DNA of 64,000 nt, from the IMG/VR virus record IMGVR_UViG_2684623189_000005. One strand, written 5' to 3'. This stretch comes from a virus (Duplodnaviria > Heunggongvirae > Uroviricota > Caudoviricetes). Below the pieces are notes generated by a model that was given only the letters and a program-made list of their open reading frames with translations, ran no database searches and was not told the origin of the DNA. Shown here in pieces: positions 677 through 43,551 of the stretch (position 1 is the first letter of the stretch; each line of letters begins with the position of its first letter). The translations under genes were made by a program, and so were the position numbers.

Positions 677-2739
677 ACGACCTCTTTTAATTGCCTGTCA
701 TTTAATTCTTTATGCCATATGCGGAAATTGCGAATATGGCCAAACAGATGTCGTTCTCCAGTATTCGTCTGCCCTCCAAATCGGATATTTTTATCAGCGG
801 TCACACCATTATATTCACAATAAACTTCATTAACCGCTTTACCATTTGTCACCACATGAAAGTGACCATCAGCTTTTGCAATACATCCAAATGTGGTTTT
901 CTCTGCAAATACATCTGTCGCTGCGCTATTAACATACAAGCCTGAAGGGTTTGACAGACTCATATATAACTTACCACTACCTCTGTTGATTGCTGCAATT
1001 GCTGATTGCCCGGTATTGGCTGCTGCTATATCCCACACGCGGGGTGCGGCGTTTGGTGCAATATCCCAGTTTTTATGAATCTCAAGTAAAAAAGTAAATG
1101 GTAACTTATAAAGATTATTTCTGGTGGGGATACTAACCAAATCACTGGCTCTTGTCGTTGCGCTGCCTCCTGAAATAATAAATGATGATACACACGGCCC
1201 ATTCTCTACTTGTGGGGTGGCAAGATAAATATAGTCACCAGATACTGTTGCCCCACCCCGCTCAGGAGAATACTGTATCTGAGAGCCTATTTTTAACTCA
1301 CCATCAATTGCCTGAATCGTTGCCTCTGCAAAAATCCAGCCTGTGGTCTTATCCTTCCTGACTCGTGCCGTAATTCTGCCGGCAGCCCCACCTGTCATAT
1401 TAATTTCAAGCGTTTGCGTATCAATGTACGCATCGCCAAGAAAAGTTGTTGCACTACCATCATACTTATCAAACCGTATACGTAACCTTACCTGTCGTTC
1501 TGTTTTAAAACGGCATGAGGTTGTCACGTACTTGTTATCGCCTGAGACATCAACTGACTTTGTTGCAGCAATTGATGCCATATTAATAGCCGAAGTTTGC
1601 CCAACCAGAGAATCGTTGCAGACAAACTTTCCATAAGTAAAACCAAAACTATCTGTCCCGGTTTCGGGCACATCCATGTTTGATGACTTCCCCCAGCTGG
1701 CTGGACTTTCCGAATTGAGCATGTAGTTCGTTCTTTGTCCCTCAATAAGCAGGCCATCACACTCAAATCGCGGCTCATTAATTTCCGCCGTTTTCAGTTC
1801 GCCAGATTTGTTGATATATGTTGCCGTTGATGCGCGACTGAAATTAACCTGTTTATCACTGGCGACCTGAACCACATCGTCACCAATAGCTATTTTTTTA
1901 TAGCCCGGAGAAAAACCCGCAATCATATCCAGTGAATCGTTAAACGGTATCCACACATCAGGCAGCGGCGGCACTATATTCGCATAGGGCTCTGCAGTCA
2001 CTTCCGCTGCGACTTCTGCGCGGTCTGCCGCCTTTTCAGCCCGTGTCGCTGCCGACAGAGCCTCATCCTTTTTCTGCCCGGCCTTTGTTGCGTCTGCTGC
2101 GGCCTCCCGCGCTTTTGTGGTGGCGACTCCGGCATTTTCAGCGGCTGACTCTGCATTACGGCGGGAAGCCTCTTCACTGTCTGCGGAGGCTTCTTCTGAC
2201 GCACGGGCATTTGTCTCTGAACGTTCTGCCGCTGTTGCTGCGTTTTGTGCGGCTGTTTTTGAAGAAGCTGCCGCTTTCGCGCTGTTACCTGCATTCGTCT
2301 CTGATGTTTTCGCCGCATTCCTGGACGATGCCGCTGCTGTTTCTGATTTCTTTGCTGCCGCTGCGCTCTGAGAGGCGGCTTCAGCGTTGCGTGCCACCTC
2401 TTCCACCATCTTTTCAAAACGATACAGTGCCTCCGGACGAACATCATCTTCTGTTGCAGCGCCCAGAAAATCATTCAATGTCCCCGGCTTAGAATCCTCA
2501 TACACGGTGATGGCCCCGGCATGTGAAGGCGGAAAACCTTCAACCAGCAGGATAACGCTGTACTGGCCATACTCGACATCCATGCTGTAACGTCCGGCTT
2601 CATCCGGATTTTCTGAGGCCACCGTGTTCACCACAACCGTGGTGCTGTTACGTTTTGCTTTGAGCTGAATGGTGCAGTTCTGTATCGGTTTTCCTGCACC
2701 GTCTTTCAGCACGCCTGAAATCTGTACTGCCATATTCAC
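673..2739 (-). CDS. stf: lambdoid side tail fibre protein (Stf-like N-terminus, Ala/Ser-rich stalk, lectin/LamG-like C-terminal domain)
   Basis: 688 aa; N-terminus MAVQISGVLKDGAGKPIQNCTIQLKAKRNSTTVVVNT matches the lambda Stf N-terminal domain as I recall it; lies directly downstream of the J 3' fragment. Confidence 0.8.
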   Translation of the reverse strand: MNMAVQISGVLKDGAGKPIQNCTIQLKAKRNSTTVVVNTVASENPDEAGRYSMDVEYGQYSVILLVEGFPPSHAGAITVYEDSKPGTLNDFLGAATEDDVRPEALYRFEKMVEEVARNAEAASQSAAAAKKSETAAASSRNAAKTSETNAGNSAKAAASSKTAAQNAATAAERSETNARASEEASADSEEASRRNAESAAENAGVATTKAREAAADATKAGQKKDEALSAATRAEKAADRAEVAAEVTAEPYANIVPPLPDVWIPFNDSLDMIAGFSPGYKKIAIGDDVVQVASDKQVNFSRASTATYINKSGELKTAEINEPRFECDGLLIEGQRTNYMLNSESPASWGKSSNMDVPETGTDSFGFTYGKFVCNDSLVGQTSAINMASIAATKSVDVSGDNKYVTTSCRFKTERQVRLRIRFDKYDGSATTFLGDAYIDTQTLEINMTGGAAGRITARVRKDKTTGWIFAEATIQAIDGELKIGSQIQYSPERGGATVSGDYIYLATPQVENGPCVSSFIISGGSATTRASDLVSIPTRNNLYKLPFTFLLEIHKNWDIAPNAAPRVWDIAAANTGQSAIAAINRGSGKLYMSLSNPSGLYVNSAATDVFAEKTTFGCIAKADGHFHVVTNGKAVNEVYCEYNGVTADKNIRFGGQTNTGERHLFGHIRNFRIWHKELNDRQLKEVV

Positions 2740-2791
2740 TCCACAAATAAAAAAGGCGCCATTTCTGGCGCCCGTATCTGGGTTATAAAAT

Positions 2792-3078
2792 TCAACTGAT
2801 ACTGATACCGGCTGTAGATTTCTTCATCACAACAACAAGAAGGTCGCTGATACTGGTCGTTGGCGTCCAGTTATTAGCACCATATGAAGAAACATTGAAA
2901 GTCAGGGTGACATGGCCGTGTCCGGCAGGCATATCAATGACTGATGAAAATACCCTGCTGACATCCGTCGCGGGTTGCTGAAAGATTTCCTGTCCGTTCT
3001 TCAGTACCTGCAGCTTACAGGTTGAATACCAGTATGACTGTTGGTTGTTGCTGTTGAAGTTTTCATGCTTACCCCCAC
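2792..3078 (-). pseudogene. J: 3' fragment of lambdoid host-specificity gene J (last ~95 codons), split from the 5' part by the Mu-like insertion
   Basis: Manual minus-strand translation gives ...[28 protein letters not shown]...[15 protein letters not shown]...[14 protein letters not shown], collinear with the lambda J C-terminus; in-frame with the J 5' part once the insertion is removed. Confidence 0.7.
3074..3078. repeat. target-site duplication, left copy (CCCAC; 5-6 bp, register ambiguous within a C-run)
   Basis: CCCCAC directly flanks TG at 3079 and is repeated directly after CA at 40289. Confidence 0.6.
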
Positions 3079-3125
3079 TGATGCGCCGCGCGATAAATGC
3101 ACTCTATCTTGTGCGATAAATGGCA
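3079..3125. repeat. left terminal region of Mu-like element with two direct GCGATAAATG repeats (putative transposase-binding sites)
   Basis: TGATGCGCCGCGCGATAAATGCACTCTATCTTGTGCGATAAATGG; resembles the CGATAAATGCG-type motif I recall at Mu ends. Confidence 0.5.
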
Positions 3126-3156
3126 TCCACGCGGCGTTTCATTATTTGAAAAAGAA

Positions 3157-3729
3157 TTACATTTCAGGTTGCGTTATGACAGTCCCAACAGGGTGGTAGC
3201 GGTAGATCGTTGACAGTCCAATATCATAGATAATTGCCAGCCGCTTTCTGTCATACCCTTTCTGGAGCAATCTTGCGATCTGCTCATGCTGCTCCTTCGT
3301 CAGTTTCGGGCGACGTCCTCCAACTCTTCCTTGTGCTCGCGCAGCAGCCAGTCCTGCCAGCGTGCGCTCAACTATCAGTTCACGCTCCATTTCTGCCAGT
3401 GCACCCATCATATGAAAAAAGAACCTTCCCATCGGAGTGCTGGTATCGATTGAATCCGTCAGACTGCGAAAATTGACACCTTTTGCGCGTAGCTCTTCTG
3501 TGAGAGCAATGAGGTGTTTCATTCTTCTACCCAACCGATCCAGCTTCCAGACCACCAATGTATCCCCTCTTTTAAGGCACTTTAAAGCGCGTTTCAGGCC
3601 TGGTCGTTCCGACTTGGTTCCGCTCATTTTGTCCTCAAAAATCTGTTCACATCCTGCGCACATTAATGCATTGCGTTGCAAATCTGTGTTTTGGTCATTT
3701 GTTGACACACGTATGTAGCCAATCAGCAT
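3157..3729 (-). CDS. gin: serine DNA invertase (Gin/Pin/Cin/Hin family)
   Basis: MLIGYIRVSTNDQNTDLQRNAL...GDTLVVWKLDRLGR...C-terminal HTH; start taken at internal Met 44 of the track ORF; adjacent to the invertible tail-fibre segment. Confidence 0.9.
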   Translation of the reverse strand: MLIGYIRVSTNDQNTDLQRNALMCAGCEQIFEDKMSGTKSERPGLKRALKCLKRGDTLVVWKLDRLGRRMKHLIALTEELRAKGVNFRSLTDSIDTSTPMGRFFFHMMGALAEMERELIVERTLAGLAAARAQGRVGGRRPKLTKEQHEQIARLLQKGYDRKRLAIIYDIGLSTIYRYHPVGTVITQPEM

Positions 3730-3784
3730 TAAAAATACTCCCTTTTGAGTGGTTAAAGTACTGAGATAATGTGGGGAGGATTTG

Positions 3785-3808
3785 AGAGATAAACGTTGGT
3801 TTGGGGGA
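3785..3808. other. gix/hix-like recombination crossover site 1 (AAACG-TT-GGTTT core)
   Basis: Partial palindrome at the 5' edge of a ~70-bp sequence repeated at 4299 and, inverted, at 5914. Confidence 0.5.
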
Positions 3809-28699: not shown

Positions 28700-29050
28700 T
28701 TAAAGCCCCATCGCAACAGCCAGGCAGACCGCTGCAACAATCAGTGCACGGCGGATTAACGCAGCAGAAAACACCAGGTGAAGGCCGGTCTGTACCGGGA
28801 AACGCCCTTCAGCCATCAGCCTGTCGTCATGTTTCAGGTACTGACCGGGACGGGCTTTGGGGAAGAGCGAACGGTCAAGCCAGTAACCCAGCACTGCTGC
28901 CAGCGTGATGAGTGCCAGCTTGTAGATCACAACAGGCAGCTGCTGTGGTGAGACCAGAGCGATGGTGCCCAGCAACAGCACTGAGGTCAGCAGCCAGCCG
29001 CTGAGGCGAGGTTTTTTAACAGGGGGAATGAATTTTTTCAGGTTTTTCAT
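28700..29050 (-). CDS. putative holin (first gene of the late operon)
   Basis: Start at internal Met with a GGAG ribosome-binding site; multiple TM segments; directly upstream of the endolysin. Confidence 0.55.
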   Translation of the reverse strand: MKNLKKFIPPVKKPRLSGWLLTSVLLLGTIALVSPQQLPVVIYKLALITLAAVLGYWLDRSLFPKARPGQYLKHDDRLMAEGRFPVQTGLHLVFSAALIRRALIVAAVCLAVAMGL

Positions 29051-29180
29051 GTGTGTCTCCTCGTTTGGTGGAGACAGCATCACAAATACAGGGCGCAAAG
29101 GATTTTAAAGCGCGTTAAGAGAGCCGGGGATACGGGATGTGCAGGATAAACGATGAATTATTCACAGAGGAGAATACGAT
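29051..29180. promoter_or_regulatory. divergent intergenic region: candidate late (lysis) promoter and promoter of the P-loop gene
   Basis: 130-bp gap between divergently oriented genes. Confidence 0.35.
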
Positions 29181-29657
29181 ATGACGCACACACTGAATCC
29201 GGTCATCACTGTCACTGTGTCCGGTCCTGTGGGCAGCGGTAAAAGTTACGTACTGGCGCGGATAGAAGAGATGGTGAAACAGGAACTCGGAAACAGCGTC
29301 ATTGTCGATGCTGCTGACGTGGAGAATGAGCGCCGTATGAATGGCGAAGATCTGACGACCTGGCAGAAGCCACGGGGTGGCACAGTGATCAGGCTAGAGG
29401 AATACACGGGACAGGGCCTGTTGTCATACGGCGAGGAGCGTATCTGTCGGACGAATGAGCTGCTGGATGTTATATGCCCCACGGGCCGGCAACCCTGGAT
29501 ACTGCCCGATGCACTGCATGCCACCATTGCGGCACTGATGACAGTTTACGATCAGGAGCTGCTCATGAAGGAGTTACGTAAACTCACCGGTCAGCCAACA
29601 GAATGTTGTTCGTCTCCGAAGTACGGCAAACAGGAAAACGCCCCGGATAATCCTTAA
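29181..29657 (+). CDS. small P-loop NTPase (orphan)
   Basis: 158 aa; Walker A GPVGSGKS near the N-terminus, Walker-B-like VIVDAAD; preceded by a GAGGAG ribosome-binding site. Confidence 0.6.
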   Translation: MTHTLNPVITVTVSGPVGSGKSYVLARIEEMVKQELGNSVIVDAADVENERRMNGEDLTTWQKPRGGTVIRLEEYTGQGLLSYGEERICRTNELLDVICPTGRQPWILPDALHATIAALMTVYDQELLMKELRKLTGQPTECCSSPKYGKQENAPDNP

Positions 29658-29694
29658 GATACCTCCTGAACAGAAACAGCCCTGAAGGGCTGCA

Positions 29695-30285
29695 CTAAAA
29701 AAAGAAGTGTATTATTGCCCAAACAGCTATAACGATGATTCCCAGCCCAAGAGCCGATTCTAACTTATCTTTGGCAGTCATTTTTACTGTTGTAGCGGGC
29801 GCAGGTAAGTCTTGCTGCTGTGGATTTTCTGTTAGTTGTTTACGAGAAGAAACATCGCCCCTATTAGTTTGCTTCATGTTGATTACAGATGCGTTATGGG
29901 CATTATCAGCAGCAATTGACTGAAGTTTTACAAAAGTTTTTGAATCTGTTTTAGCCAGAAGTAACCTATTTCCCGTAAACATTGCCTTAAAAGTGATAGT
30001 TTTTTTCGTCTTGTCCGCCGCACCAAGCAAACCTCCAATGACCAACCCTGCACCACCAAAGATTAATCCACCAAGCAAACCTGCGCCTGCCGCCTTACCT
30101 ATACGGCTTTCCTCTTCACTATCCGCAAGTTCAATCGATAAAAGCTCTTCTTTCAGATTTAATACAATATTTTCAGGAAAGCCTTGTTTTGGTTTTTTGG
30201 CAAACACGATGGTACCGAACCCCATGCTTGCCCACCCTTTAGGAAAACTTCCTGCGATAACCTGAATCCCTGCCATGTTCATCAC
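29695..30285 (-). CDS. glycine-zipper membrane protein
   Basis: 196 aa; GKAAGAGLLGGLIFGGAGLVIGGLLGAA glycine-zipper helix plus C-terminal TM LGLGIIVIAVWAIIHFFF. Confidence 0.6.
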   Translation of the reverse strand: MMNMAGIQVIAGSFPKGWASMGFGTIVFAKKPKQGFPENIVLNLKEELLSIELADSEEESRIGKAAGAGLLGGLIFGGAGLVIGGLLGAADKTKKTITFKAMFTGNRLLLAKTDSKTFVKLQSIAADNAHNASVINMKQTNRGDVSSRKQLTENPQQQDLPAPATTVKMTAKDKLESALGLGIIVIAVWAIIHFFF

Positions 30286-30366
30286 CTTTTACATTAAAAT
30301 TTCAGAACGCAGCATGATGCCGCCTTTGTCTTTTTTCTGATCCCATGGTAATTCAGCTGTTATTTT

Positions 30367-31353
30367 CTATTTAAGAATAAAACGGTATTTACTGTCAGGA
30401 GTGCTTTGCTGATCAAGTAGCAGTGAACGACATGGAGCAGTCAAAACCCGAGCATAACTACCATCAGGGCTTATGTTAATGTAACAAACCTTGCCCTTAA
30501 CACTATAATTTTCGGGGACGGATGCCTTTGCTGATACAGTAAATTTAAGGGTATGCCAGCCCGTTTTTTGCTTGTAGCTTGAAACCGAATGGAAATCATC
30601 TGAGTACTTATTTAACCCTAGAAACATGCTGCGCAGTGCGGGGATGGAATCTTCTATTATTTTATCGTTGGTTTTAATGTTAAAAACGCTGGTTTCAGTA
30701 GAAGCTACTGCTTTGGCATTTCCCCATTTACCAGCGAACACAATCATTCCCACGAAAAATATTGCTACAAGAACTAACACTCCCCCCAACACTACTACAT
30801 GAGGCTTCCGGCTTCTGGTTGGTACAGTTGCGACTGATTTTGCACCGCTTTCCGATGGAGGTGATAGAGTTTTACTCTCATCACGAATATTCAGCAGATC
30901 ATCAAAATAACCAAACACAGCCTGCAACTGCTCTTTGTCTAGGCCTTTAAGATGGGTTGTACCGAAATGCTTCAGACAGTATCTGTCACGGTCAAGACGA
31001 TACCCAGGGTCAGTAAGCGCCATTATTTTGCTGACCAGAAGATTACAGTCCTTCATATTCTGGATCTGTTGTGCATATCTCTGAAGGATCTCAACCGCAC
31101 CATGATAATCAGCCGCAGTCATTTCATTAACTGTTTTGGTATTAAGTTTCGTGTGGATCGTCATCCATAGCTCGCGCTTACTTTCCCCCAGATCAACCAA
31201 TTCATCCATCAATCTGTGTAAATCGCGTTTTTGCAGCAACGAAATTGGTTGCTGGGCCGAAGGAAGTATGTCAGCAGAATAGTTATGAATGGTAACATCA
31301 CCGCTGACAACGTTACCCACATCCCCGTTAACTGTTTGCTTCTCTTTACTCAT
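30367..31353 (-). CDS. bitopic membrane protein apparently translationally coupled to the prophage repressor
   Basis: 328 aa; start overlaps the repressor stop; one central TM (VVVLGGVLVLVAIFFVGMIVFAG) between a cytoplasmic N-domain and a Cys-containing periplasmic C-domain. Confidence 0.6.
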   Translation of the reverse strand: MSKEKQTVNGDVGNVVSGDVTIHNYSADILPSAQQPISLLQKRDLHRLMDELVDLGESKRELWMTIHTKLNTKTVNEMTAADYHGAVEILQRYAQQIQNMKDCNLLVSKIMALTDPGYRLDRDRYCLKHFGTTHLKGLDKEQLQAVFGYFDDLLNIRDESKTLSPPSESGAKSVATVPTRSRKPHVVVLGGVLVLVAIFFVGMIVFAGKWGNAKAVASTETSVFNIKTNDKIIEDSIPALRSMFLGLNKYSDDFHSVSSYKQKTGWHTLKFTVSAKASVPENYSVKGKVCYINISPDGSYARVLTAPCRSLLLDQQSTPDSKYRFILK

Positions 31354-31811
31354 CTTCTCTTGGTATTTTTGTTCATTATTCCACCTGTTCCTATGGTTAC
31401 GTTACCTTTGATAACATTCCCCAGAACATCTCCATGAATAACCTGTTCCGCCCGTTCTCTGGAGGAGCCAGTAGTCAAGGCCGACAAAACTGAACCTTTG
31501 ACCTGTAATGGTGCCTGCCGGTAGTGCTGCAGTAACTCCATTTCATCACGTGATAAAGTTATACCTGATGACTCCCCGGTAAGAATGAACTGTACATTGG
31601 CCCCAATTCTTGCAAAGGCTGCAAGTAACTCACCTCCGGGAACAGCAACCCCTCGTTCATATTTCCCCCACATTTCTCTTGAAACGCCACAAAGGGCTGC
31701 TACTTCAGCCTGCTTGAGTGATAACCGCGAACGCTCAGCTTTGAACCGCGACGCGCAAAGAGAATCAAAATTCACATAAACCTCATTGACAATGAGAACA
31801 ATAGTTCTCAT
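31350..31811 (-). CDS. prophage repressor (XRE-family HTH)
   Basis: 153 aa; HTH ...LSLKQAEVAALCGVSREMWGKYERG...; divergent from the ner-like gene. Confidence 0.75.
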   Translation of the reverse strand: MRTIVLIVNEVYVNFDSLCASRFKAERSRLSLKQAEVAALCGVSREMWGKYERGVAVPGGELLAAFARIGANVQFILTGESSGITLSRDEMELLQHYRQAPLQVKGSVLSALTTGSSRERAEQVIHGDVLGNVIKGNVTIGTGGIMNKNTKRR

Positions 31812-31861
31812 AATCTATCACATATAAAACAAACATCATTGCATCAACAAAGGAGACAACA
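31812..31861. promoter_or_regulatory. 50-bp divergent repressor/early-operon control region
   Basis: Only non-coding sequence between the divergent repressor and ner-like genes. Confidence 0.5.
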
Positions 31862-32050
31862 ATGACTTCCGAACAAGTTAAAAATCTCTTCCGTCAGCGT
31901 GGTATCACGTTTACCCGCTGGGCCGAAGAACACGGCTACAGCCGCAATGAGGTCTATCGTGTTCTCAATGGACAGACCAAAGCTCGTTACGGCAAAGCCC
32001 ATGAAATTGCCGTAAAACTGGGATTAAAACCCACGTCAAATGCGGCATAA
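31862..32050 (+). CDS. ner: Ner-like DNA-binding protein
   Basis: 62 aa; ...ITFTRWAEEHGYSRNEVYRVLNGQ... Ner/Nlp-type helix; first gene of the early operon. Confidence 0.7.
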   Translation: MTSEQVKNLFRQRGITFTRWAEEHGYSRNEVYRVLNGQTKARYGKAHEIAVKLGLKPTSNAA

Positions 32051-32102
32051 ATTTTCCACATATGCAACAGGTTATCACATATTGCAAAAATGGAAATGTG
32101 AC

Positions 32103-32411
32103 ATGAGTAAAGTAAATATTTCCAGTTCTGGGACCCGCATCCTACGTGTACTCAAAGCTCTACGCGGTCATGCTCTGAACGGTGTTTCTAACGGTGAACT
32201 GGCATCAGCCCTGGGGGAGTCCCCAGCGAATATCAATCGAGCACTTAATACCCTTATTGAAGAGGGACTGGCCATGAAATTAGAGAACGGACGTTTCGCA
32301 CCGGGAATCCAGTTACTACAGATCGCCATGGCTCACAGTCACGAGATGGCGCGTGCACAGGATCGTATTAACGAAATCAACCAACGAGTTATTTCAGGTA
32401 GTCGTTTGTAA
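32103..32411 (+). CDS. putative winged-helix DNA-binding protein
   Basis: ~103 aa from internal Met; ...ILRVLKALRGHALNGVSNGELASALGESPANINRALNTLIEEGL... Confidence 0.5.
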   Translation: MSKVNISSSGTRILRVLKALRGHALNGVSNGELASALGESPANINRALNTLIEEGLAMKLENGRFAPGIQLLQIAMAHSHEMARAQDRINEINQRVISGSRL

Positions 32412-32421
32412 GGAGTAATCA

Positions 32422-33336
32422 ATGGGACGCACCAAATCACCCGTTAACACTGAACTGAATGTTGAGGTTCCGCTGTCAGATAACATCAATGTCAATTTGA
32501 ACGCTATGACACAGCATCGCATGGAAATTATGCAGCAGTTTGGTGATGGACTGCCTTATGAACGTGATCGCATTGTTCACGAAGCACGTTTTTATATGGC
32601 GCAGAGTGCTGAATCTATGCTGGAAGCGGGTAAGCGGCTGATCATCTTAAAAGAAAATGAGCCACACGGTGATTTTACAAACATTTTAGAAAATGAACTC
32701 GGACTTGCACCACAAGTTGCTCGCCGCATGATGCAAGCCAGTATGAAGTTTTTGGGAGAAGGTGATGAGCCAACAAAACGCTCAACGTTGAGCGTTTTGG
32801 GGAAAGCCAAACTGTACGACCTGATGGTTCTGGATAATGAAGAACTTGATGAATTGGCCGACGGCGGCACAGTTGCCGGCCTGACGCTTGACGACGTTGA
32901 TCGCATGTCAGTACGTGAATTGCGTCAGGCCCTGCGCGAAGCGCGCGAAACCAACGCAGCACAACAGCGCGTACTCGCTGACAAAAATGAAAAAATAGAC
33001 TCACTCTCCACCAGACTGGAGAAGAAATCCCGTATTCAGCCGCCTGAGCCTGATGAAGAGGTTAAGAAGCTGCGGGCGGAAGTGACAGCATTAGCGGTTG
33101 AGGCGGAATCTGCTATCGCCGTTCGACTGTCCAGCGCTTTTGAGACGCTGTGCGCATATTGTGCTGAAAACATGATTGATACCCCCAGAGACTTCATGGC
33201 AGGCCTGGTCTGTCAACTGGAAAGCACAGCGCGTAGCCTGCGCTCCACATTTGACCTGCCGGATGAGCCAACAGGCAATGCCGCGCCTTCATGGCTGACT
33301 GAGCCGACGCCACAGATTAACGGGCTGGAGGCATAA
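32422..33336 (+). CDS. hypothetical early protein with coiled-coil segment
   Basis: 304-aa ORF between ner and the transposase; no family recognised with certainty. Confidence 0.5.
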   Translation: MGRTKSPVNTELNVEVPLSDNINVNLNAMTQHRMEIMQQFGDGLPYERDRIVHEARFYMAQSAESMLEAGKRLIILKENEPHGDFTNILENELGLAPQVARRMMQASMKFLGEGDEPTKRSTLSVLGKAKLYDLMVLDNEELDELADGGTVAGLTLDDVDRMSVRELRQALREARETNAAQQRVLADKNEKIDSLSTRLEKKSRIQPPEPDEEVKKLRAEVTALAVEAESAIAVRLSSAFETLCAYCAENMIDTPRDFMAGLVCQLESTARSLRSTFDLPDEPTGNAAPSWLTEPTPQINGLEA

Positions 33337-33339
33337 CCA

Positions 33340-35109
33340 ATGAATGCTGCCCTGACTGAACGACTGGTTTATGTCGCCCGCGCGGCACGTGACGCGGGGC
33401 ATGGTAAACGCGGTGCAATATACGACGCTGCCTGTGCTGAACTTGGCATGTCCCGCGCCACTCTGCTGCGCAGGCTGAAGGAGGTCTCTGTGACTGATAA
33501 ACGCAAAAAACGCGCTGATGCCGGACGCAGCGCCCTGACCCGCGACGAAGCCGCGCTGATATCTGCCACACTGCGTGAGGCCACCCGCAAGAACGGTAAA
33601 CGCCTCTATTCCATCGCAGATGCAGTGGAAACCCTGCGGGCTAACGGCTTTATCACCGCAGGCAGAACAGATGAAACCACCGGTGAGTTTTTCCCGTTGT
33701 CTGAAGATGCCATCAGCCGTGCTCTGCGTAACTATGGCCTGCACCCGGAACAACTGGATGCTCCTGCACCGCATACCGAAGTGGCCAGTCTGCACCCCAA
33801 TCATGTCTGGCAGATTGACGCCTCACTCTGCACGCTTTACTACCTGAGCAATGGACATAAAGGGCTGCAGGTGATGGACAGCGCGAAGTTCTACAAGAAC
33901 AAGCCCGCTAACCTTGCCCGTATCGCCAGTGACCGCGTGTGGAGTTACGAGATTACCGACCATGCCAGCGGCTGGATTTACGTTGAGTATGTGACGGGCG
34001 CGGAATCAGGTGAGAACCTGTGTTCTGTGCTTATCAACGCCATGCAGGAGCGTGGCGGCGCAGACGTGCTGCACGGCGTGCCAAAAATACTCTATCTCGA
34101 CCCCGGCTCGGCAAACACCGCGGGTATGACGAAAAACATGTGCCGCTCACTGGGCATCGACCTGATAGCGCACAAGCCGCATAACGCCCGCGCCACCGGA
34201 CAGGTGGAAAAGGCGCGGGACATTATCGAACGCAAGCTGGAGCCGGGTCTGAAGTTCCGGCCGGTTCACAGTCTGGAAGAACTCAATGCGCTGGCCGCGA
34301 AATGGCGCAGCCACTTTAACGCCACGGCTGTTCACAGCCGCCACGGTAAAACCCGCACGGATATCTGGCTGAAGATTACTGCTGAGCAGCTGAAAAAAGC
34401 GCCTTCCGTTGAGGTATGTCGTGAACTGGCTGTGGCGGCACCAGAACTCCGCAAAGTCACGCCAAAACTTCGTGTCTCGTTCCGGGGCACTGAATTTGAC
34501 GTATCAACGGTACCGGGCGTACTGGTCGGTGAAAAACTGATGATTACCCGTAACCCGTGGCGCAGCGATGTGGCACAGGTGGTTCTGACCGGTGAGGACG
34601 GCCACGAGACGTTCTTCCTGGTCGAAGAAGTCAGAAAGAACGAGTTTGGCTTTGCTGAAGGCGCGGCGGTATTTGGCGAAAGTTACAAAGCCCTGCCGGA
34701 AACCCCGGCGCAGATGGCGGCAAAAGAAACCGAAGCGCTGGTCACCGGTACAGACAACGCCGCAGATGCAGCTGCCGCACGCAAGGCGAAGGCGCTGCCG
34801 TTCGGCGGGCGGCTTGACCCATATAAACATATTGATGACGCCACACTTCCGGCCTATATGCCGAAGCGAGGTCAGGCCTCTGACGTACGCGGGCCGCGCA
34901 CTGAACAACGTCCCATGACTCATGTGGAGGCCGCGAAAGCCCTGCGCGATAAGTTCAGCGCCGACGGCCTTACCTGGACGCCGGAACATTACCGCCAGTT
35001 AACGGCACAGTATCCGGACGGCGTACCGGAAGCCGCACTGGATGAAGTCATGGCCACGCTGACCACGCCGGCCCGCAGCAGCGTTATCAGCATTGTTAAC
35101 GGCAACTGA
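33340..35109 (+). CDS. DDE transposase (Mu A-like function; integrase-core fold)
   Basis: 589 aa; N-terminal HTH, central ...HVWQIDAS... and ...ILYLDPGSANTAG... DDE-type core. Confidence 0.85.
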   Translation: MNAALTERLVYVARAARDAGHGKRGAIYDAACAELGMSRATLLRRLKEVSVTDKRKKRADAGRSALTRDEAALISATLREATRKNGKRLYSIADAVETLRANGFITAGRTDETTGEFFPLSEDAISRALRNYGLHPEQLDAPAPHTEVASLHPNHVWQIDASLCTLYYLSNGHKGLQVMDSAKFYKNKPANLARIASDRVWSYEITDHASGWIYVEYVTGAESGENLCSVLINAMQERGGADVLHGVPKILYLDPGSANTAGMTKNMCRSLGIDLIAHKPHNARATGQVEKARDIIERKLEPGLKFRPVHSLEELNALAAKWRSHFNATAVHSRHGKTRTDIWLKITAEQLKKAPSVEVCRELAVAAPELRKVTPKLRVSFRGTEFDVSTVPGVLVGEKLMITRNPWRSDVAQVVLTGEDGHETFFLVEEVRKNEFGFAEGAAVFGESYKALPETPAQMAAKETEALVTGTDNAADAAAARKAKALPFGGRLDPYKHIDDATLPAYMPKRGQASDVRGPRTEQRPMTHVEAAKALRDKFSADGLTWTPEHYRQLTAQYPDGVPEAALDEVMATLTTPARSSVISIVNGN

Positions 35110-40128: not shown

Positions 40129-40157
40129 TATCTGCAATCAGGCTGGAGCGAGTTCTG

Positions 40158-43491
<3,334 letters not shown>

Positions 43492-43551
43492 TCCTCATGC
43501 TCCATAAACGATAAAACCGCCCGGAGGCGGTTTCACATAAAACATTTTGCA

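What the first reader, a model, noticed from the sequence alone, without database searches (positions are those of the whole stretch)
29181..31811. Repressor-linked membrane module: candidate lysogen-expressed exclusion/abortive-infection system
The XRE-type repressor (31350..31811) overlaps by 4 bp the start of a 328-aa bitopic membrane protein (30367..31353), followed 81 bp later by a 196-aa glycine-zipper membrane protein (29695..30285). A divergent small P-loop NTPase (29181..29657) faces them. This island separates the early and late operons, where genes are expected to be expressed in the lysogen. The layout parallels lambda cI-rexA-rexB and P22 sieB-type exclusion loci, but none of the three proteins matches a defence family I can name.
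Basis: partly seen in the sequence, partly recalled or inferred. Interest (0 to 1): 0.8.

Follow-up and report, generated by a model that had tools for sequence, protein, structure and literature searches.

The report
Phage repressor paired with membrane partner
The swappable immunity cassette of a Mu-like E. coli prophage encodes its repressor with a membrane protein whose first ~20 residues copy the repressor's last ~20, which suggests that the two proteins bind each other rather than forming a simple Rex-like exclusion pair.

Summary
The ORFs are real and at the stated coordinates. The region is the immunity cassette (window 29646-31809) of a BcepMu-like transposable prophage of E. coli.

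It reads leftward as one operon: XRE repressor, a translationally coupled 328-aa bitopic membrane protein, a 196-aa PH/glycine-zipper membrane protein, then a terminator hairpin. No known defence family matches any of them. The P-loop ORF is a 3'-truncated backbone gene and not part of the module.

The 328-aa protein fuses a cytoplasmic Flk_N-type domain with a periplasmic two-cysteine domain. Relatives encode these as separate adjacent genes. The periplasmic domain also occurs as a stand-alone lipoprotein, once fused to Ltp repeats.

The main new result concerns a shared motif:
- Repressor-then-Flk_N pairs recur in BcepMu-like and in P2-like prophages; the P2-like version is in 520 of 5426 complete E. 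coli genomes.
- In 47 of 49 distinct pairs the repressor's C-terminal ~20 residues and the membrane protein's N-terminal ~20 residues carry the same N/G/V-rich motif.
- The motif differs between clades, is matched within each clade, and is kept at protein level rather than DNA level.

I infer a motif-mediated repressor-membrane partnership, with envelope cargo that may exclude phages.

The parts
31786..31814 (+). Early promoter of the prophage: TTGACA, 17-nt spacer, CATAAT. It drives the ner-like and transposase operon.
   Evidence: Promoter scan, 11 of 12 consensus matches; sequence read directly. This is a consensus match only and has not been shown to be active.
31792..31811 (.). Candidate operator: perfect palindrome ATGAGAAC-AATA-GTTCTCAT filling the spacer of the early promoter.
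   Evidence: Inverted repeat. It is unique in the window, with 0 matches expected in shuffles. Its role as an operator is inferred from its position.
31350..31811 (-). XRE-type repressor gene. The ORF is 153 aa; the likely true start is GTG 31775, giving 141 aa. The HTH is encoded at about 31608-31748.
   Evidence: HTH_31 and HTH_3 score above the Pfam cut-offs; there is a sub-threshold match to the NCBIfam RstR phage-repressor model. It is divergent from the ner-like gene, and the family alignment is A2.
31392..31433 (-). Repressor C-terminal tail motif GDVLGNVIKGNVTI.
   Evidence: Nearly invariant in four repressor homologues. It is one of only two copies of the motif in the six-frame translation of the window. 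It matches the head of the next protein with a Smith-Waterman score of 55, against a shuffled null of 19.6 +/- 4.3.
30367..31353 (-). 328-aa bitopic inner-membrane protein, translationally coupled to the repressor by a 4-bp overlap.
   Evidence: ORF and overlap. phrog_10002 matches over the full length. There are 24 homologous clusters, all in Enterobacterales. In 4 + 15 loci the gene always directly follows the same repressor family in BcepMu-like prophages.
31288..31326 (-). Head motif GDVGNVVSGDVTI of the 328-aa protein, the counterpart of the repressor tail.
   Evidence: Invariant G10, G13-G18, V20 and I22 in 18 homologues. Disordered in the AF2 monomer, pLDDT about 42. It is the second of the two copies in the window.
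30874..31263 (-). Cytoplasmic helical Flk_N-type domain (residues about 31-160).
   Evidence: NCBIfam Flk model NF007987, E = 2.9e-12, residues 19-147, far below the full-length cut-off. Precomputed PF27202 Flk_N hits on homologues. AF2 pLDDT above 90. The domain also occurs alone in tail-anchored proteins of about 190-220 aa.
30733..30801 (-). Single transmembrane segment (residues about 185-207).
   Evidence: Kyte-Doolittle windows reach 3.05; helix 189-207 in the model. The segment and linker vary in sequence but are always hydrophobic.
30370..30693 (-). Periplasmic alpha/beta domain (residues about 221-328) with two invariant cysteines, C290 and C308.
   Evidence: Alignment A1; AF2 pLDDT above 90. 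It occurs alone as lipobox lipoproteins downstream of other repressors. It is a separate adjacent gene in L030. It is fused to 2x Lipoprotein_Ltp in P0082.
29695..30285 (-). 196-aa (probably 193-aa) PH-domain/glycine-zipper membrane protein. The glycine zipper is encoded at about 30016-30096 and the C-terminal TM at about 29698-29772. It is an independently exchangeable cargo gene.
   Evidence: phrog_12025. Precomputed PF27000 PH_gly_zipper on homologues. Alignment A3; the AF2 model has low confidence, 57. In Citrobacter it occurs directly after a different repressor, without the 328-aa protein. The mosaic breakpoint lies at 30355/30356.
29676..29693 (-). Hairpin (GCAGCCCTTCAGGGCTGT followed by a T-rich tail) ending the repressor operon. 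It lies between the two convergent genes.
   Evidence: Terminator scan; sequence read directly. Consensus match only.
29181..29657 (+). P-loop ORF. It is a neighbour and not part of the module: a 3'-truncated copy of a 242-aa backbone gene.
   Evidence: phrog_3787 matched over positions 1-157 of 242. It matches the 242-aa protein of type-B prophages up to about residue 152. Homology to the type-B prophage stops at 29645. The gene is absent in strain A33 and replaced in FEA3.

Best explanation
Window 29646-31809 is the exchangeable immunity cassette of a BcepMu-like transposable prophage.

Anatomy (shown):
- One leftward operon encodes the XRE repressor, which probably occludes the early promoter through a palindromic operator in its spacer.
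- A translationally coupled bitopic inner-membrane protein follows.
- A PH/glycine-zipper tail-anchored membrane protein comes next, and then a terminator hairpin.

The repressor and the 328-aa protein are a cognate pair (shown). The repressor's last ~20 residues and the membrane protein's first ~20 residues carry the same N/G/V-rich motif. This matching is kept in about 50 distinct repressor/Flk_N pairs from BcepMu-like and P2-like prophages, although the motif itself differs between clades.

Mechanism (inferred):
- The two proteins associate through this motif, by beta-strand zippering or possibly amyloid-type templating.
- The Flk_N-type membrane protein therefore tethers, buffers or converts part of the repressor pool at the inner membrane. 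This would link the lysis-lysogeny switch to something sensed at the envelope.
- The fused periplasmic domain and the separate PH/glycine-zipper protein are lysogen-expressed envelope cargo. Their likeliest role is to act on incoming phages (superinfection exclusion).

The physical interaction, its direction and any phenotype are all untested.
For: Operon anatomy:
- 4-bp overlap, 81-bp gap, terminator hairpin at 29676-29693.
- Early promoter and unique palindrome at 31786-31814.

Cassette nature:
- Mosaic breakpoints at 29645|31810, 30355|30356 and 29121|29658.
- Only 98 of the 636 E. coli genomes that match part of the queried interval 28700-32500 carry at least 80% of it.

Strict linkage:
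- In every locus examined the 328-aa gene directly follows the same repressor family.
- A reverse search with the repressor recovers the same contigs.

Domain homology:
- The cytoplasmic domain is homologous to Flk_N (E = 2.9e-12).
- Flk is a tail-anchored cytoplasmic protein proposed to act on the flagellar export gate through protein contacts (PMC13344023).

The same dyad in unrelated phages:
- P2-like Peduoviridae show cox/arc on one strand, then repressor, Flk_N, variable cargo and integrase on the other.
- 165 IMG/VR contigs for one subgroup, and 520 of 5426 E. coli genomes.

Shared motif:
- 47 of 49 unique pairs score 43-79, against a shuffled null of 19.6 +/- 4.3 with a maximum of 42.
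- In the class matrix the diagonal is 49-58, most off-diagonal cells are 14-26, and cells among the related classes A, C and D reach 26-46.
- Nucleotide identity across the motif is only 46-69%, and identical residues often use different codons.
- There are exactly two copies per locus.
- N is enriched 4.1x, G 2.4x and V 1.5x. L, P and K are depleted.

Other support:
- Repressors without an Flk_N partner lack the tail.
- The head is disordered in the monomer model.
- Cargo reading: the periplasmic domain occurs as a stand-alone lipoprotein after other repressors, is split from Flk_N in L030, and is fused to Ltp repeats in P0082. The PH_gly_zipper protein occurs alone after a CI-type repressor.
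Against: - No interaction was computed or measured. No multimer prediction was available.
- Fine-scale covariation within the largest clade is weak (59.5 against 57.4) and is confounded by genetic linkage.
- Class E loci (L011, L124) have repressors without the tail motif.
- The fold searches gave nothing informative.
- Nothing shows what signal would be sensed. The tail-anchored P2-type versions have no periplasmic part.
Confidence: 0.4

Rival explanations
1. The membrane proteins are free-standing exclusion or abortive-infection effectors expressed in the lysogen, in the manner of Rex or Sie. The repressor only supplies transcription, and the shared motif is incidental to the defence function.
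For: - Operon position downstream of the repressor.
- The content of this slot varies among related prophages.
- The periplasmic domain occurs as a stand-alone lipoprotein and is fused to Ltp repeats in P0082.
- The PH_gly_zipper protein occurs alone after another repressor.
- Low G+C (about 43-48%) compared with 55-60% for the prophage backbone.
Against: - No PADLOC, Pfam or PHROG hit with a defence annotation.
- The Flk_N gene is constant next to its repressor while the cargo behind it varies.
- This view does not explain the clade-matched motif shared with the repressor.
- Repressors without an Flk_N partner lack the tail.
Confidence: 0.25
2. An amyloid-signalling suicide pair of the Bab/Agp or HET-S type. 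The repressor tail and the Flk_N head form a cross-beta template. A change in repressor state (titration, release from DNA, oligomerisation) converts the membrane protein into a lethal membrane effector.
For: - Adjacent collinear genes, with the motif at the C-terminus of the first product and the N-terminus of the second.
- At least 15 aligned residues and scores of at least 40. These are the criteria of Dyrka et al., read, and they are met.
- The N/G/V enrichment and L/P/K depletion resemble BASS motifs.
- There is a precedent in an E. coli prophage defence island (10.1101/2024.11.07.622273).
- Class B heads carry two pseudo-repeats and the repressors carry one.
Against: - The partner domains are not an NLR/STAND or TPR sensor plus a Bell/HeLo effector.
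- Q and I are not enriched.
- The motif is 17-20 aa, shorter than the ~25 aa typical of BASS motifs.
- No fibril or prion evidence exists.
- The Flk_N domain has no known pore-forming activity.
Confidence: 0.1
3. Decoy or common-partner model. Tail and head do not bind each other. Both are recognised by a third factor, for example a membrane protease or adaptor, so the membrane protein protects the repressor or delivers it. The logic resembles lambda CIII and CII with FtsH (from memory).
For: - The same motif sits on an unstructured cytoplasmic end of both proteins.
- The membrane protein is anchored at the inner membrane.
- The motif is kept matched within each clade, as expected for competition for a single site.
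Against: - Host proteases usually read end-specific or loosely defined degrons. A host factor would not be expected to track four or more different motif classes across hosts.
- No candidate third factor is encoded in the cassette.
Confidence: 0.1
4. Lysogenic conversion by a Flk mimic. The phage Flk_N protein acts on the host flagellar type III export gate and changes flagellin export. This could block flagellotropic phages or lower immune recognition.
For: - Domain-level homology to Flk.
- Flk is proposed to hold the flagellar export apparatus in early-secretion mode, with a possible contact to the cytoplasmic domain of FlhA (PMC13344023).
Against: - Only the N-terminal third of the Flk model is matched, at 46.6 bits against a cut-off of 353.
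- This model does not explain the motif shared with the repressor or the strict adjacency to it.
Confidence: 0.05
5. The motif pair is a relic of gene fission or duplication at the gene junction and has no present function. The 328-aa protein has an unrelated role or none.
For: The two copies lie only 72-125 nt apart at the gene junction.
Against: - Nucleotide identity is 46-69% with frequent codon differences, while the peptides stay matched.
- Head and tail residues are invariant across homologues that are only 44-82% identical overall.
- At least four motif classes each remain matched within class.
- The match persists in L062, where another gene is inserted between the pair.
Confidence: 0.05

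Closest known systems
Lambda cI-rexA-rexB immunity operon (from memory; RexA is also reported to interact with CI and modulate the switch)
   Same: Genes are co-transcribed with the prophage repressor from the maintenance promoter. A membrane component and a link to the repressor are both present. The cassette sits in the immunity region and is exchanged as a block.
   Different: There is no sequence match. RexB has four TM segments and RexA is soluble, whereas here there is one bitopic and one tail-anchored protein. Rex proteins share no terminal motif with CI.
Amyloid-signalling gene pairs: bacterial BASS motifs with Bell/NLR proteins, and the E. coli Bab/Agp abortive-infection system (10.1101/2020.01.06.895854; 10.1101/2024.11.07.622273)
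   Same: A short N/G/V-rich motif is shared by the C-terminus of one product and the N-terminus of the adjacent, collinear gene's product. The motif differs between families and is matched within each. It is disordered in the monomer. The setting is a prophage.
   Different: The partners here are a DNA-binding phage repressor and an Flk_N membrane protein, not a sensor NTPase or TPR protein plus a cell-death domain. The motif is shorter, and amyloid formation is untested.
[quoted passage not shown]
   Same: The cytoplasmic N-terminal domain is homologous. Both are anchored in the inner membrane by a single C-terminal-side TM segment. Both are regulators thought to act through protein contacts.
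   Different: Only the N-terminal domain matches. The genomic context is a phage immunity operon, not the chromosomal flk locus. The window protein also has a periplasmic domain and a head motif, and I recall no such N/G/V-rich motif in E. coli Flk (from memory; not checked with a tool).
Superinfection-exclusion lipoproteins and membrane proteins of temperate phages: TP-J34 Ltp, T5 Llp, phi80 Cor, P22 SieA/SieB, K139 Glo (from memory)
   Same: They are small envelope proteins expressed from the prophage, often next to the repressor. The periplasmic domain of the 328-aa protein exists as lipobox lipoproteins in the same slot, and one relative carries Ltp repeats.
   Different: The window proteins themselves show no homology to any of these. 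No exclusion phenotype is known.

Membership tests
Lambda Rex (RexA/RexB) exclusion system | Sequence homology to RexA or RexB | tested here: not met
   No Rex model appears among the PADLOC hits for any of the proteins, and there is no Pfam or PHROG hit to Rex. I did not separately verify that PADLOC holds Rex models.
Lambda Rex (RexA/RexB) exclusion system | A polytopic (4-TM) membrane protein plus a soluble partner, co-transcribed with the repressor | tested here: not met
   Co-transcription with the repressor is consistent with the sequence. The topologies differ: one bitopic and one tail-anchored protein.
Ltp-type superinfection-exclusion lipoproteins (Pfam PF07553) | Lipoprotein_Ltp repeat domain and a lipobox signal peptide | tested here: not met
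   The window proteins have no PF07553 hit. Only the distant relative P0082 carries 2x Ltp repeats, fused to the periplasmic domain. Lipoboxes are present in stand-alone relatives but not in the window protein.
Flk (NCBIfam NF007987, flagella biosynthesis regulator) | Full-length match above the curated cut-off of 353 bits | tested here: not met
   46.6 bits. Only residues 19-147 match, against model positions 14-143 of 339.
Flk_N domain family (Pfam PF27202) | Match to the Flk_N domain | tested here: met
   Precomputed PF27202 hits on homologues P0001, P0002, P0017 and P0041, plus the NCBIfam Flk N-terminal match at E = 2.9e-12. The local Pfam copy does not hold this model.
Amyloid-signalling motif gene pairs (BASS/FASS) | Adjacent collinear genes. 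The motif is at the C-terminus of the upstream product and the N-terminus of the downstream product, with a local alignment of at least 15 aa and a score of at least 40 (Dyrka et al.). | tested here: met
   The gap is -4 to +29 bp, with one pair at -11 and one locus (L062) with an inserted gene. Alignments are 14-20 aa and scores 43-79 in 47 of 49 pairs. I used BLOSUM62 with gap penalties 11/1, not the identical scoring program.
Amyloid-signalling motif gene pairs (BASS/FASS) | Composition bias: enriched Q, N, G, V, I and depleted K, P, L | tested here: inconclusive
   N 4.1x, G 2.4x, V 1.5x; L 0.09x, P 0.10x, K 0.44x. Q (0.74x) and I (0.84x) are not enriched.
Amyloid-signalling motif gene pairs (BASS/FASS) | Partners are a sensor (NLR/STAND/TPR) and a cell-death effector (Bell, HeLo and similar) | tested here: not met
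   The partners are an XRE HTH repressor and an Flk_N membrane protein.
Amyloid-signalling motif gene pairs (BASS/FASS) | The motif forms cross-beta fibrils and templates its partner | not testable with these tools
   This needs peptide fibrillation, ThT or Congo red binding, foci assays or solid-state NMR. Here the only observation is that the head is disordered in the monomer model.
XRE-family temperate-phage repressor | HTH_3/HTH_31 domain, a gene divergent from the early operon, and an operator overlapping the early promoter | tested here: met
   HTH_31 30.5 bits (cut-off 27) and HTH_3 23.0 bits (cut-off 23). Divergent from the ner-like gene. A unique palindrome fills the promoter spacer. 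Repression itself is not testable here.
PH_gly_zipper (Pfam PF27000), for the 196-aa protein | Match to the PH_gly_zipper model | tested here: met
   Precomputed PF27000 hits, marked weak, on near-identical and 71%-identical homologues P0025, P0028 and P0032. The model is absent from the local Pfam copy. The AF2 model shows strands, a glycine-zipper helical hairpin and a helix, at low confidence.
Known anti-phage defence systems (PADLOC-DB v2) | A significant hit of any module protein to a defence model | tested here: not met
   Only generic HTH hits (RmrA, E = 5e-5) and P-loop noise (E >= 0.007).

The most novel reading that the evidence does not exclude
The matched tail and head motif is a templating or zippering element. 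Through it an inner-membrane Flk_N protein switches a phage repressor off, or the repressor switches the membrane protein on. That would be an envelope-coupled, possibly prion-like, lysis-lysogeny or suicide switch that does not depend on RecA-mediated cleavage. It would be shared by BcepMu-like and P2-like prophages and present in roughly a tenth of complete E. coli genomes.
Probability: 0.2. Interest if true: 0.9.

Novelty: new variant of a known kind. Interest (0 to 1): 0.66.

Why it matters
Many temperate phages have short XRE repressors with no self-cleavage domain, and how these are inactivated is often unknown. A membrane-anchored partner that recognises the repressor through a matched terminal peptide would offer a new route from the cell envelope to prophage induction or immunity. 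The route is directly testable by mutating about 20 residues.

If the motif is amyloid-like, amyloid signalling would extend from immune sensor/effector pairs to a transcription factor that controls a virus life cycle. The P2-like version is in 520 of 5426 complete E. coli genomes, and the BcepMu-like cassette is in about 100, many of them clinical isolates. It could therefore affect prophage stability and phage susceptibility in strains targeted by phage therapy.

Even if the proteins turn out to be plain exclusion factors, the result defines three uncharacterised families: Flk_N tail-anchored proteins, the two-cysteine periplasmic domain, and PH_gly_zipper. All three occupy a repressor-linked cargo slot.

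Tried and rejected
Family searches:
- Pfam, PHROGs, NCBIfam and PADLOC scans of all module proteins gave only the HTH, Flk N-terminal and unknown-function PHROG hits.
- A sequence search of the PDB with the family profile found nothing below E = 0.5.

Structure:
- The AF2 model of the 328-aa protein is good for both domains.
- Foldseek against BFVD gave at best an ORF6C protein at E = 1e-3 with a TM-score of about 0.2-0.3. I judged neither informative.
- The AFDB library was unavailable.

Other searches:
- Rfam found no RNA family in 28-33 kb.
- In the phage record collection the 328-aa protein gave only one weak hit (27.5% identity over 27% of the query, E = 3e-4), to Escherichia phage 520873, held as two records. 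The closest deposited phage by DNA, PhiKM, carries a different cassette.
- Searches with the broad Flk_N alignment failed for lack of conserved stretches, so I used subgroups instead.
- Literature searches found no description of these proteins or of a repressor-membrane motif pair.

Hypotheses rejected:
- That the P-loop ORF is a module component: it is a truncated backbone gene.
- That the motif pair is a recent DNA duplication or the product of gene conversion: the codons differ.
- That a third copy of the motif exists on another phage protein: there are exactly two per locus.

Full report
**1. Observation**

All four ORFs are present at the stated coordinates.
- HTH protein: 31350..31811 (-), 153 aa.
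- 328-aa protein: 30367..31353 (-).
- 196-aa protein: 29695..30285 (-).
- P-loop ORF: 29181..29657 (+), 158 aa.

The first two genes overlap by ATGA, and the next gap is 81 bp. Hydropathy gives a single TM segment in the 328-aa protein (about residues 185-207). In the 196-aa protein it gives a glycine-rich hydrophobic stretch (65-90) and a C-terminal TM. G+C drops to 43-48% in 29-33 kb, against 55-60% in the flanking phage genes.

**2. Setting**

The window is an E. coli chromosome, 100% identical to strain SF-173. The region lies in a BcepMu-like (Bcepmuvirus-type) transposable prophage.
- Late genes are on the - strand: holin, SLT transglycosylase, Mu-type terminase, portal, head and contractile tail.
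- Early genes are on the + strand: a ner-like gene, an IclR-type HTH, DUF3102, a DDE transposase, a MuB-like ATPase, Gam, GemA and Mor.

In this phage type the immunity region sits between the two operons.

The promoter scan finds TTGACA-17-CATAAT at 31786-31814 (+), facing the early operon. Its spacer is filled by a perfect palindrome, ATGAGAAC-AATA-GTTCTCAT (31792-31811), which is unique in the window. I read this as the operator. The annotated repressor ATG lies inside that palindrome. GTG 31775, which has a GAGG 5 nt upstream and aligns with the start of the Salmonella homologue, is the more likely start, giving 141 aa.

A G+C-rich hairpin at 29676-29693 separates the 196-aa gene from the convergent P-loop ORF. 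No Rfam family is present.

**3. A mosaic cassette**

Of 5426 complete E. coli genomes, 636 carry part of 28700-32500, but only 98 carry at least 80% of it.
- Against the commonest variant (ST131-type strains and phage PhiKM), homology stops at 29645 and resumes at 31810. That variant has a 118-aa repressor, a Dam methylase and a 242-aa P-loop protein.
- Against strain FEA3 the shared block is 30356-33500 (repressor + 328). The 196-aa gene and the P-loop ORF are replaced by a 203-aa protein and a DUF2441 protein.
- Against strain A33 the block 29658-32440 is shared and the P-loop gene is missing.

There are therefore three independently exchangeable units: the P-loop gene, the 196-aa gene with the terminator, and repressor + 328. 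The P-loop ORF matches the 242-aa backbone protein up to about residue 152 and then diverges (phrog_3787 positions 1-157 of 242). It is a truncated neighbour, not a module component.

**4. The proteins**

*Repressor.* HTH_31 and HTH_3 score above threshold. There is a sub-threshold match to the NCBIfam RstR phage-repressor model.

*328-aa protein.* There are no local Pfam or PADLOC hits, and phrog_10002 has no known function. Only 24 homologous clusters exist among 5.8 billion, all in Enterobacterales. A profile search of 1.8 billion representatives gives 111 hits.
- The cytoplasmic part is homologous to the N-terminal domain of Flk (NCBIfam NF007987, E = 2.9e-12, residues 19-147; precomputed Pfam Flk_N).
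- AF2 gives confident models (pLDDT above 90) for a helical domain at 31-158 and an alpha/beta domain at 221-328. The head (1-30) and the linker/TM region have low confidence.
- The periplasmic domain has two invariant cysteines.

*196-aa protein.* phrog_12025 has no known function, and homologues carry precomputed Pfam PH_gly_zipper hits. The conserved core is residues 4-128, while the C-terminus varies: a TM segment in E. coli, SHOCT in a soil relative. The AF2 model has low confidence.

**5. The 328-aa protein is a fusion**

The profile search shows that the two halves occur separately. One form is a tail-anchored Flk_N protein of about 190-220 aa. The other is a lipobox lipoprotein carrying only the periplasmic domain.
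- In BcepMu-like prophage L030 the order is repressor, Flk_N protein (194 aa), lipoprotein with the periplasmic domain (315 aa), Dam, holin.
- In L031 and L032 a CI-type repressor is followed only by the lipoprotein.
- L124 carries the lipoprotein behind a different membrane protein.
- In one relative, P0082, the periplasmic domain is fused to two Lipoprotein_Ltp repeats (E = 5.5e-28). From memory, Ltp of phage TP-J34 is a characterised superinfection-exclusion lipoprotein.
- The PH_gly_zipper protein follows a different repressor directly in Citrobacter prophages. It forms a trio with an HTH protein and an Flk_N protein in a high-G+C soil contig.

**6. Linkage to the repressor**

In 4 genomic and 15 viral loci the 328-aa gene directly follows, and overlaps, the same repressor family in the same phage backbone. 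Searching with the repressor recovers the same contigs.

Tail-anchored Flk_N genes also lie immediately downstream of an XRE repressor of about 127-140 aa in P2-like prophages (Peduoviridae; for example Escherichia phage 520873). The layout there is cox/arc on one strand, then repressor, Flk_N, variable cargo, integrase and the prophage end on the other. One subgroup alone is in 165 IMG/VR contigs and in 520 of 5426 E. coli genomes.

The Flk_N gene is constant in these loci. The genes behind it vary: a secreted 118-aa protein, lipoproteins, BRCT-domain proteins, an AAA ATPase.

**7. The shared motif**

The repressor's last ~20 residues and the Flk_N protein's first ~20 residues carry the same motif, and the motif differs between clades.

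| Class | Repressor tail | Flk_N head |
|---|---|---|
| A | QQFNGPVGxVTxGDVVN | QQFNGAVxQVAAGDIKN |
| B | SGxGNRVAGRDYNENKK | NSxGxxNRxAGRDFxEN |
| C (window) | HGDVLGNVIKGNVTIG | NGDVGNVVSGDVTI |
| D | QIFNGDISGQFAGNQIIN | QEFNGTAQGQFSSRDIIN |

- 47 of 49 unique pairs give Smith-Waterman scores of 43-79, against 19.6 +/- 4.3 (maximum 42) for shuffled tails.
- In the class-by-class matrix the diagonal is 49-58. Most off-diagonal cells are 14-26, with classes A, C and D partly related at 26-46.
- Nucleotide identity across the motif is only 46-69%. Identical residues share the codon in roughly one case in seven up to two in three. The match is therefore kept at the protein level.
- There are exactly two copies per locus, in the window and in 80 of 80 class B loci. 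One of those loci has a gene inserted between the pair.
- Head and tail are invariant or nearly so across homologues that are only 44-82% identical overall.
- Repressors that lack an Flk_N partner lack the tail.
- The motif is enriched in N (4.1x), G (2.4x) and V (1.5x), and depleted in L, P and K.

Caveats:
- Covariation within class B is weak (59.5 against 57.4; 27 of 5000 permutations reach the observed value) and is confounded by linkage.
- Class E loci (L011, L124) have a different repressor C-terminus and no tail motif.

**8. Mechanism**

Shown:
- The operon anatomy.
- The cassette and its sub-units.
- The domain composition of the proteins.
- The strict repressor-Flk_N adjacency in two unrelated phage groups.
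- The matched terminal motif.

Inferred:
- The repressor and the membrane protein associate through the motif.
- The Flk_N protein tethers, buffers or converts repressor at the membrane.
- The periplasmic domain and the PH/glycine-zipper protein are envelope cargo expressed in the lysogen, possibly for exclusion.

Sequence alone cannot tell the direction of any signal. The membrane protein acting on the repressor would give induction or stronger immunity. The repressor acting on the membrane protein would give suicide or exclusion. The rivals are listed separately with what would refute each: plain exclusion cargo, an amyloid-type suicide pair, a decoy for a third factor, a Flk mimic acting on the flagellar export gate, and a fission relic.

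**9. Comparison with known systems**

The module is not a Rex, Sie or PADLOC family member: homology and topology were tested and not met. It is not Flk, because only the N-terminal domain matches.

The closest formal analogue for the motif logic is the amyloid-signalling gene pair: BASS motifs, and the E. coli Bab/Agp abortive-infection system. The positional, length and score criteria are met. The composition criterion is partly met. The partner-domain criterion is not met. Fibril formation cannot be tested here.

Flk itself is a tail-anchored cytoplasmic regulator that, according to PMC13344023, keeps the flagellar export apparatus in early mode, possibly through FlhA. This fits a protein-contact role for the domain but says nothing about phage function.

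**10. Verdict**

The exclusion or abortive-infection interpretation is partly supported as a general expectation for this locus, but no homology or phenotype backs it.

The most informative result is new. It is a repressor-membrane protein dyad with a clade-matched terminal motif, widespread in E. coli prophages and uncharacterised in the literature searched. I rate it a new variant of known kinds (repressor-linked prophage modules, and motif-sharing gene pairs). There is a 0.2 chance that it is a new kind of envelope-coupled repressor switch.

Noticed in passing
window ~40130-43500 and beyond (L001 31429-34792): The BcepMu-like prophage ends just after its Mor gene (about 40128) and abuts a truncated lambdoid tail-tip gene J (pseudogene, - strand). 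Lambdoid tail and head genes follow. The transposable phage therefore appears to have inserted into another prophage.
   Followed up: partly
window 31775-31814: The RefSeq and ORF start of the repressor (ATG 31811) lies inside the operator palindrome and the -10 box of the early promoter. GTG 31775 with a GAGG Shine-Dalgarno is the likelier start (141 aa), so the public annotation probably over-extends the gene by 12 codons.
   Followed up: yes
L042-L121 (IMG/VR), L122 (NC_049344.1 about 1000-3800): In P2-like (Xuanwuvirus-type) prophages the slot between the Flk_N gene and the integrase holds variable cargo: a secreted 118-aa protein (42 loci), BRCT-domain proteins of about 290-390 aa, lipoproteins with SHOCT-like tails, and a 447-aa AAA ATPase. 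It looks like an undescribed cargo or defence hotspot. In the deposited phage 520873 the Flk_N gene is unannotated and appears frameshifted.
   Followed up: partly
L011 49-1325; L124 4992-5961: A fifth arrangement (class E). The repressors have a longer C-terminal domain ending ...R(I/V)LKLVVN(R/H) and no tail motif. The downstream membrane proteins share a head (an EE(R/E)L..LA..V..L helix followed by G.N.GSI..G...NI) but have different bodies: Flk_N in L011, multi-TM in L124.
   Followed up: no
L012 1982-4259 (E. coli JJ1887) and PhiKM PQ738613.1 29732-32185: The commonest E. coli variant of this prophage (about 456 genomes, including ST131 strains) carries a Dam methylase, the full-length 242-aa P-loop protein and an overlapping antisense 134-aa ORF in place of the membrane module. 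The 242-aa protein has a Walker A motif but matches no family.
   Followed up: no
P0043, P0056, P0058, P0066, P0088, L030 6597-7544: Many stand-alone lipoproteins with the periplasmic domain end in a conserved extension, LPPTPDNKPPRxGCLxxxxPxxxxxWxC, with two more cysteines. It matches no family.
   Followed up: no
window 30451-30683 (- strand): Two promoter-like matches lie inside the 3' part of the 328-aa gene (TTAACA-16-AATAAT and TTAACA-17-TATGCT). They could give the 196-aa gene its own transcript. The number of such matches in the region is below the chance expectation, so this is weak.
   Followed up: no
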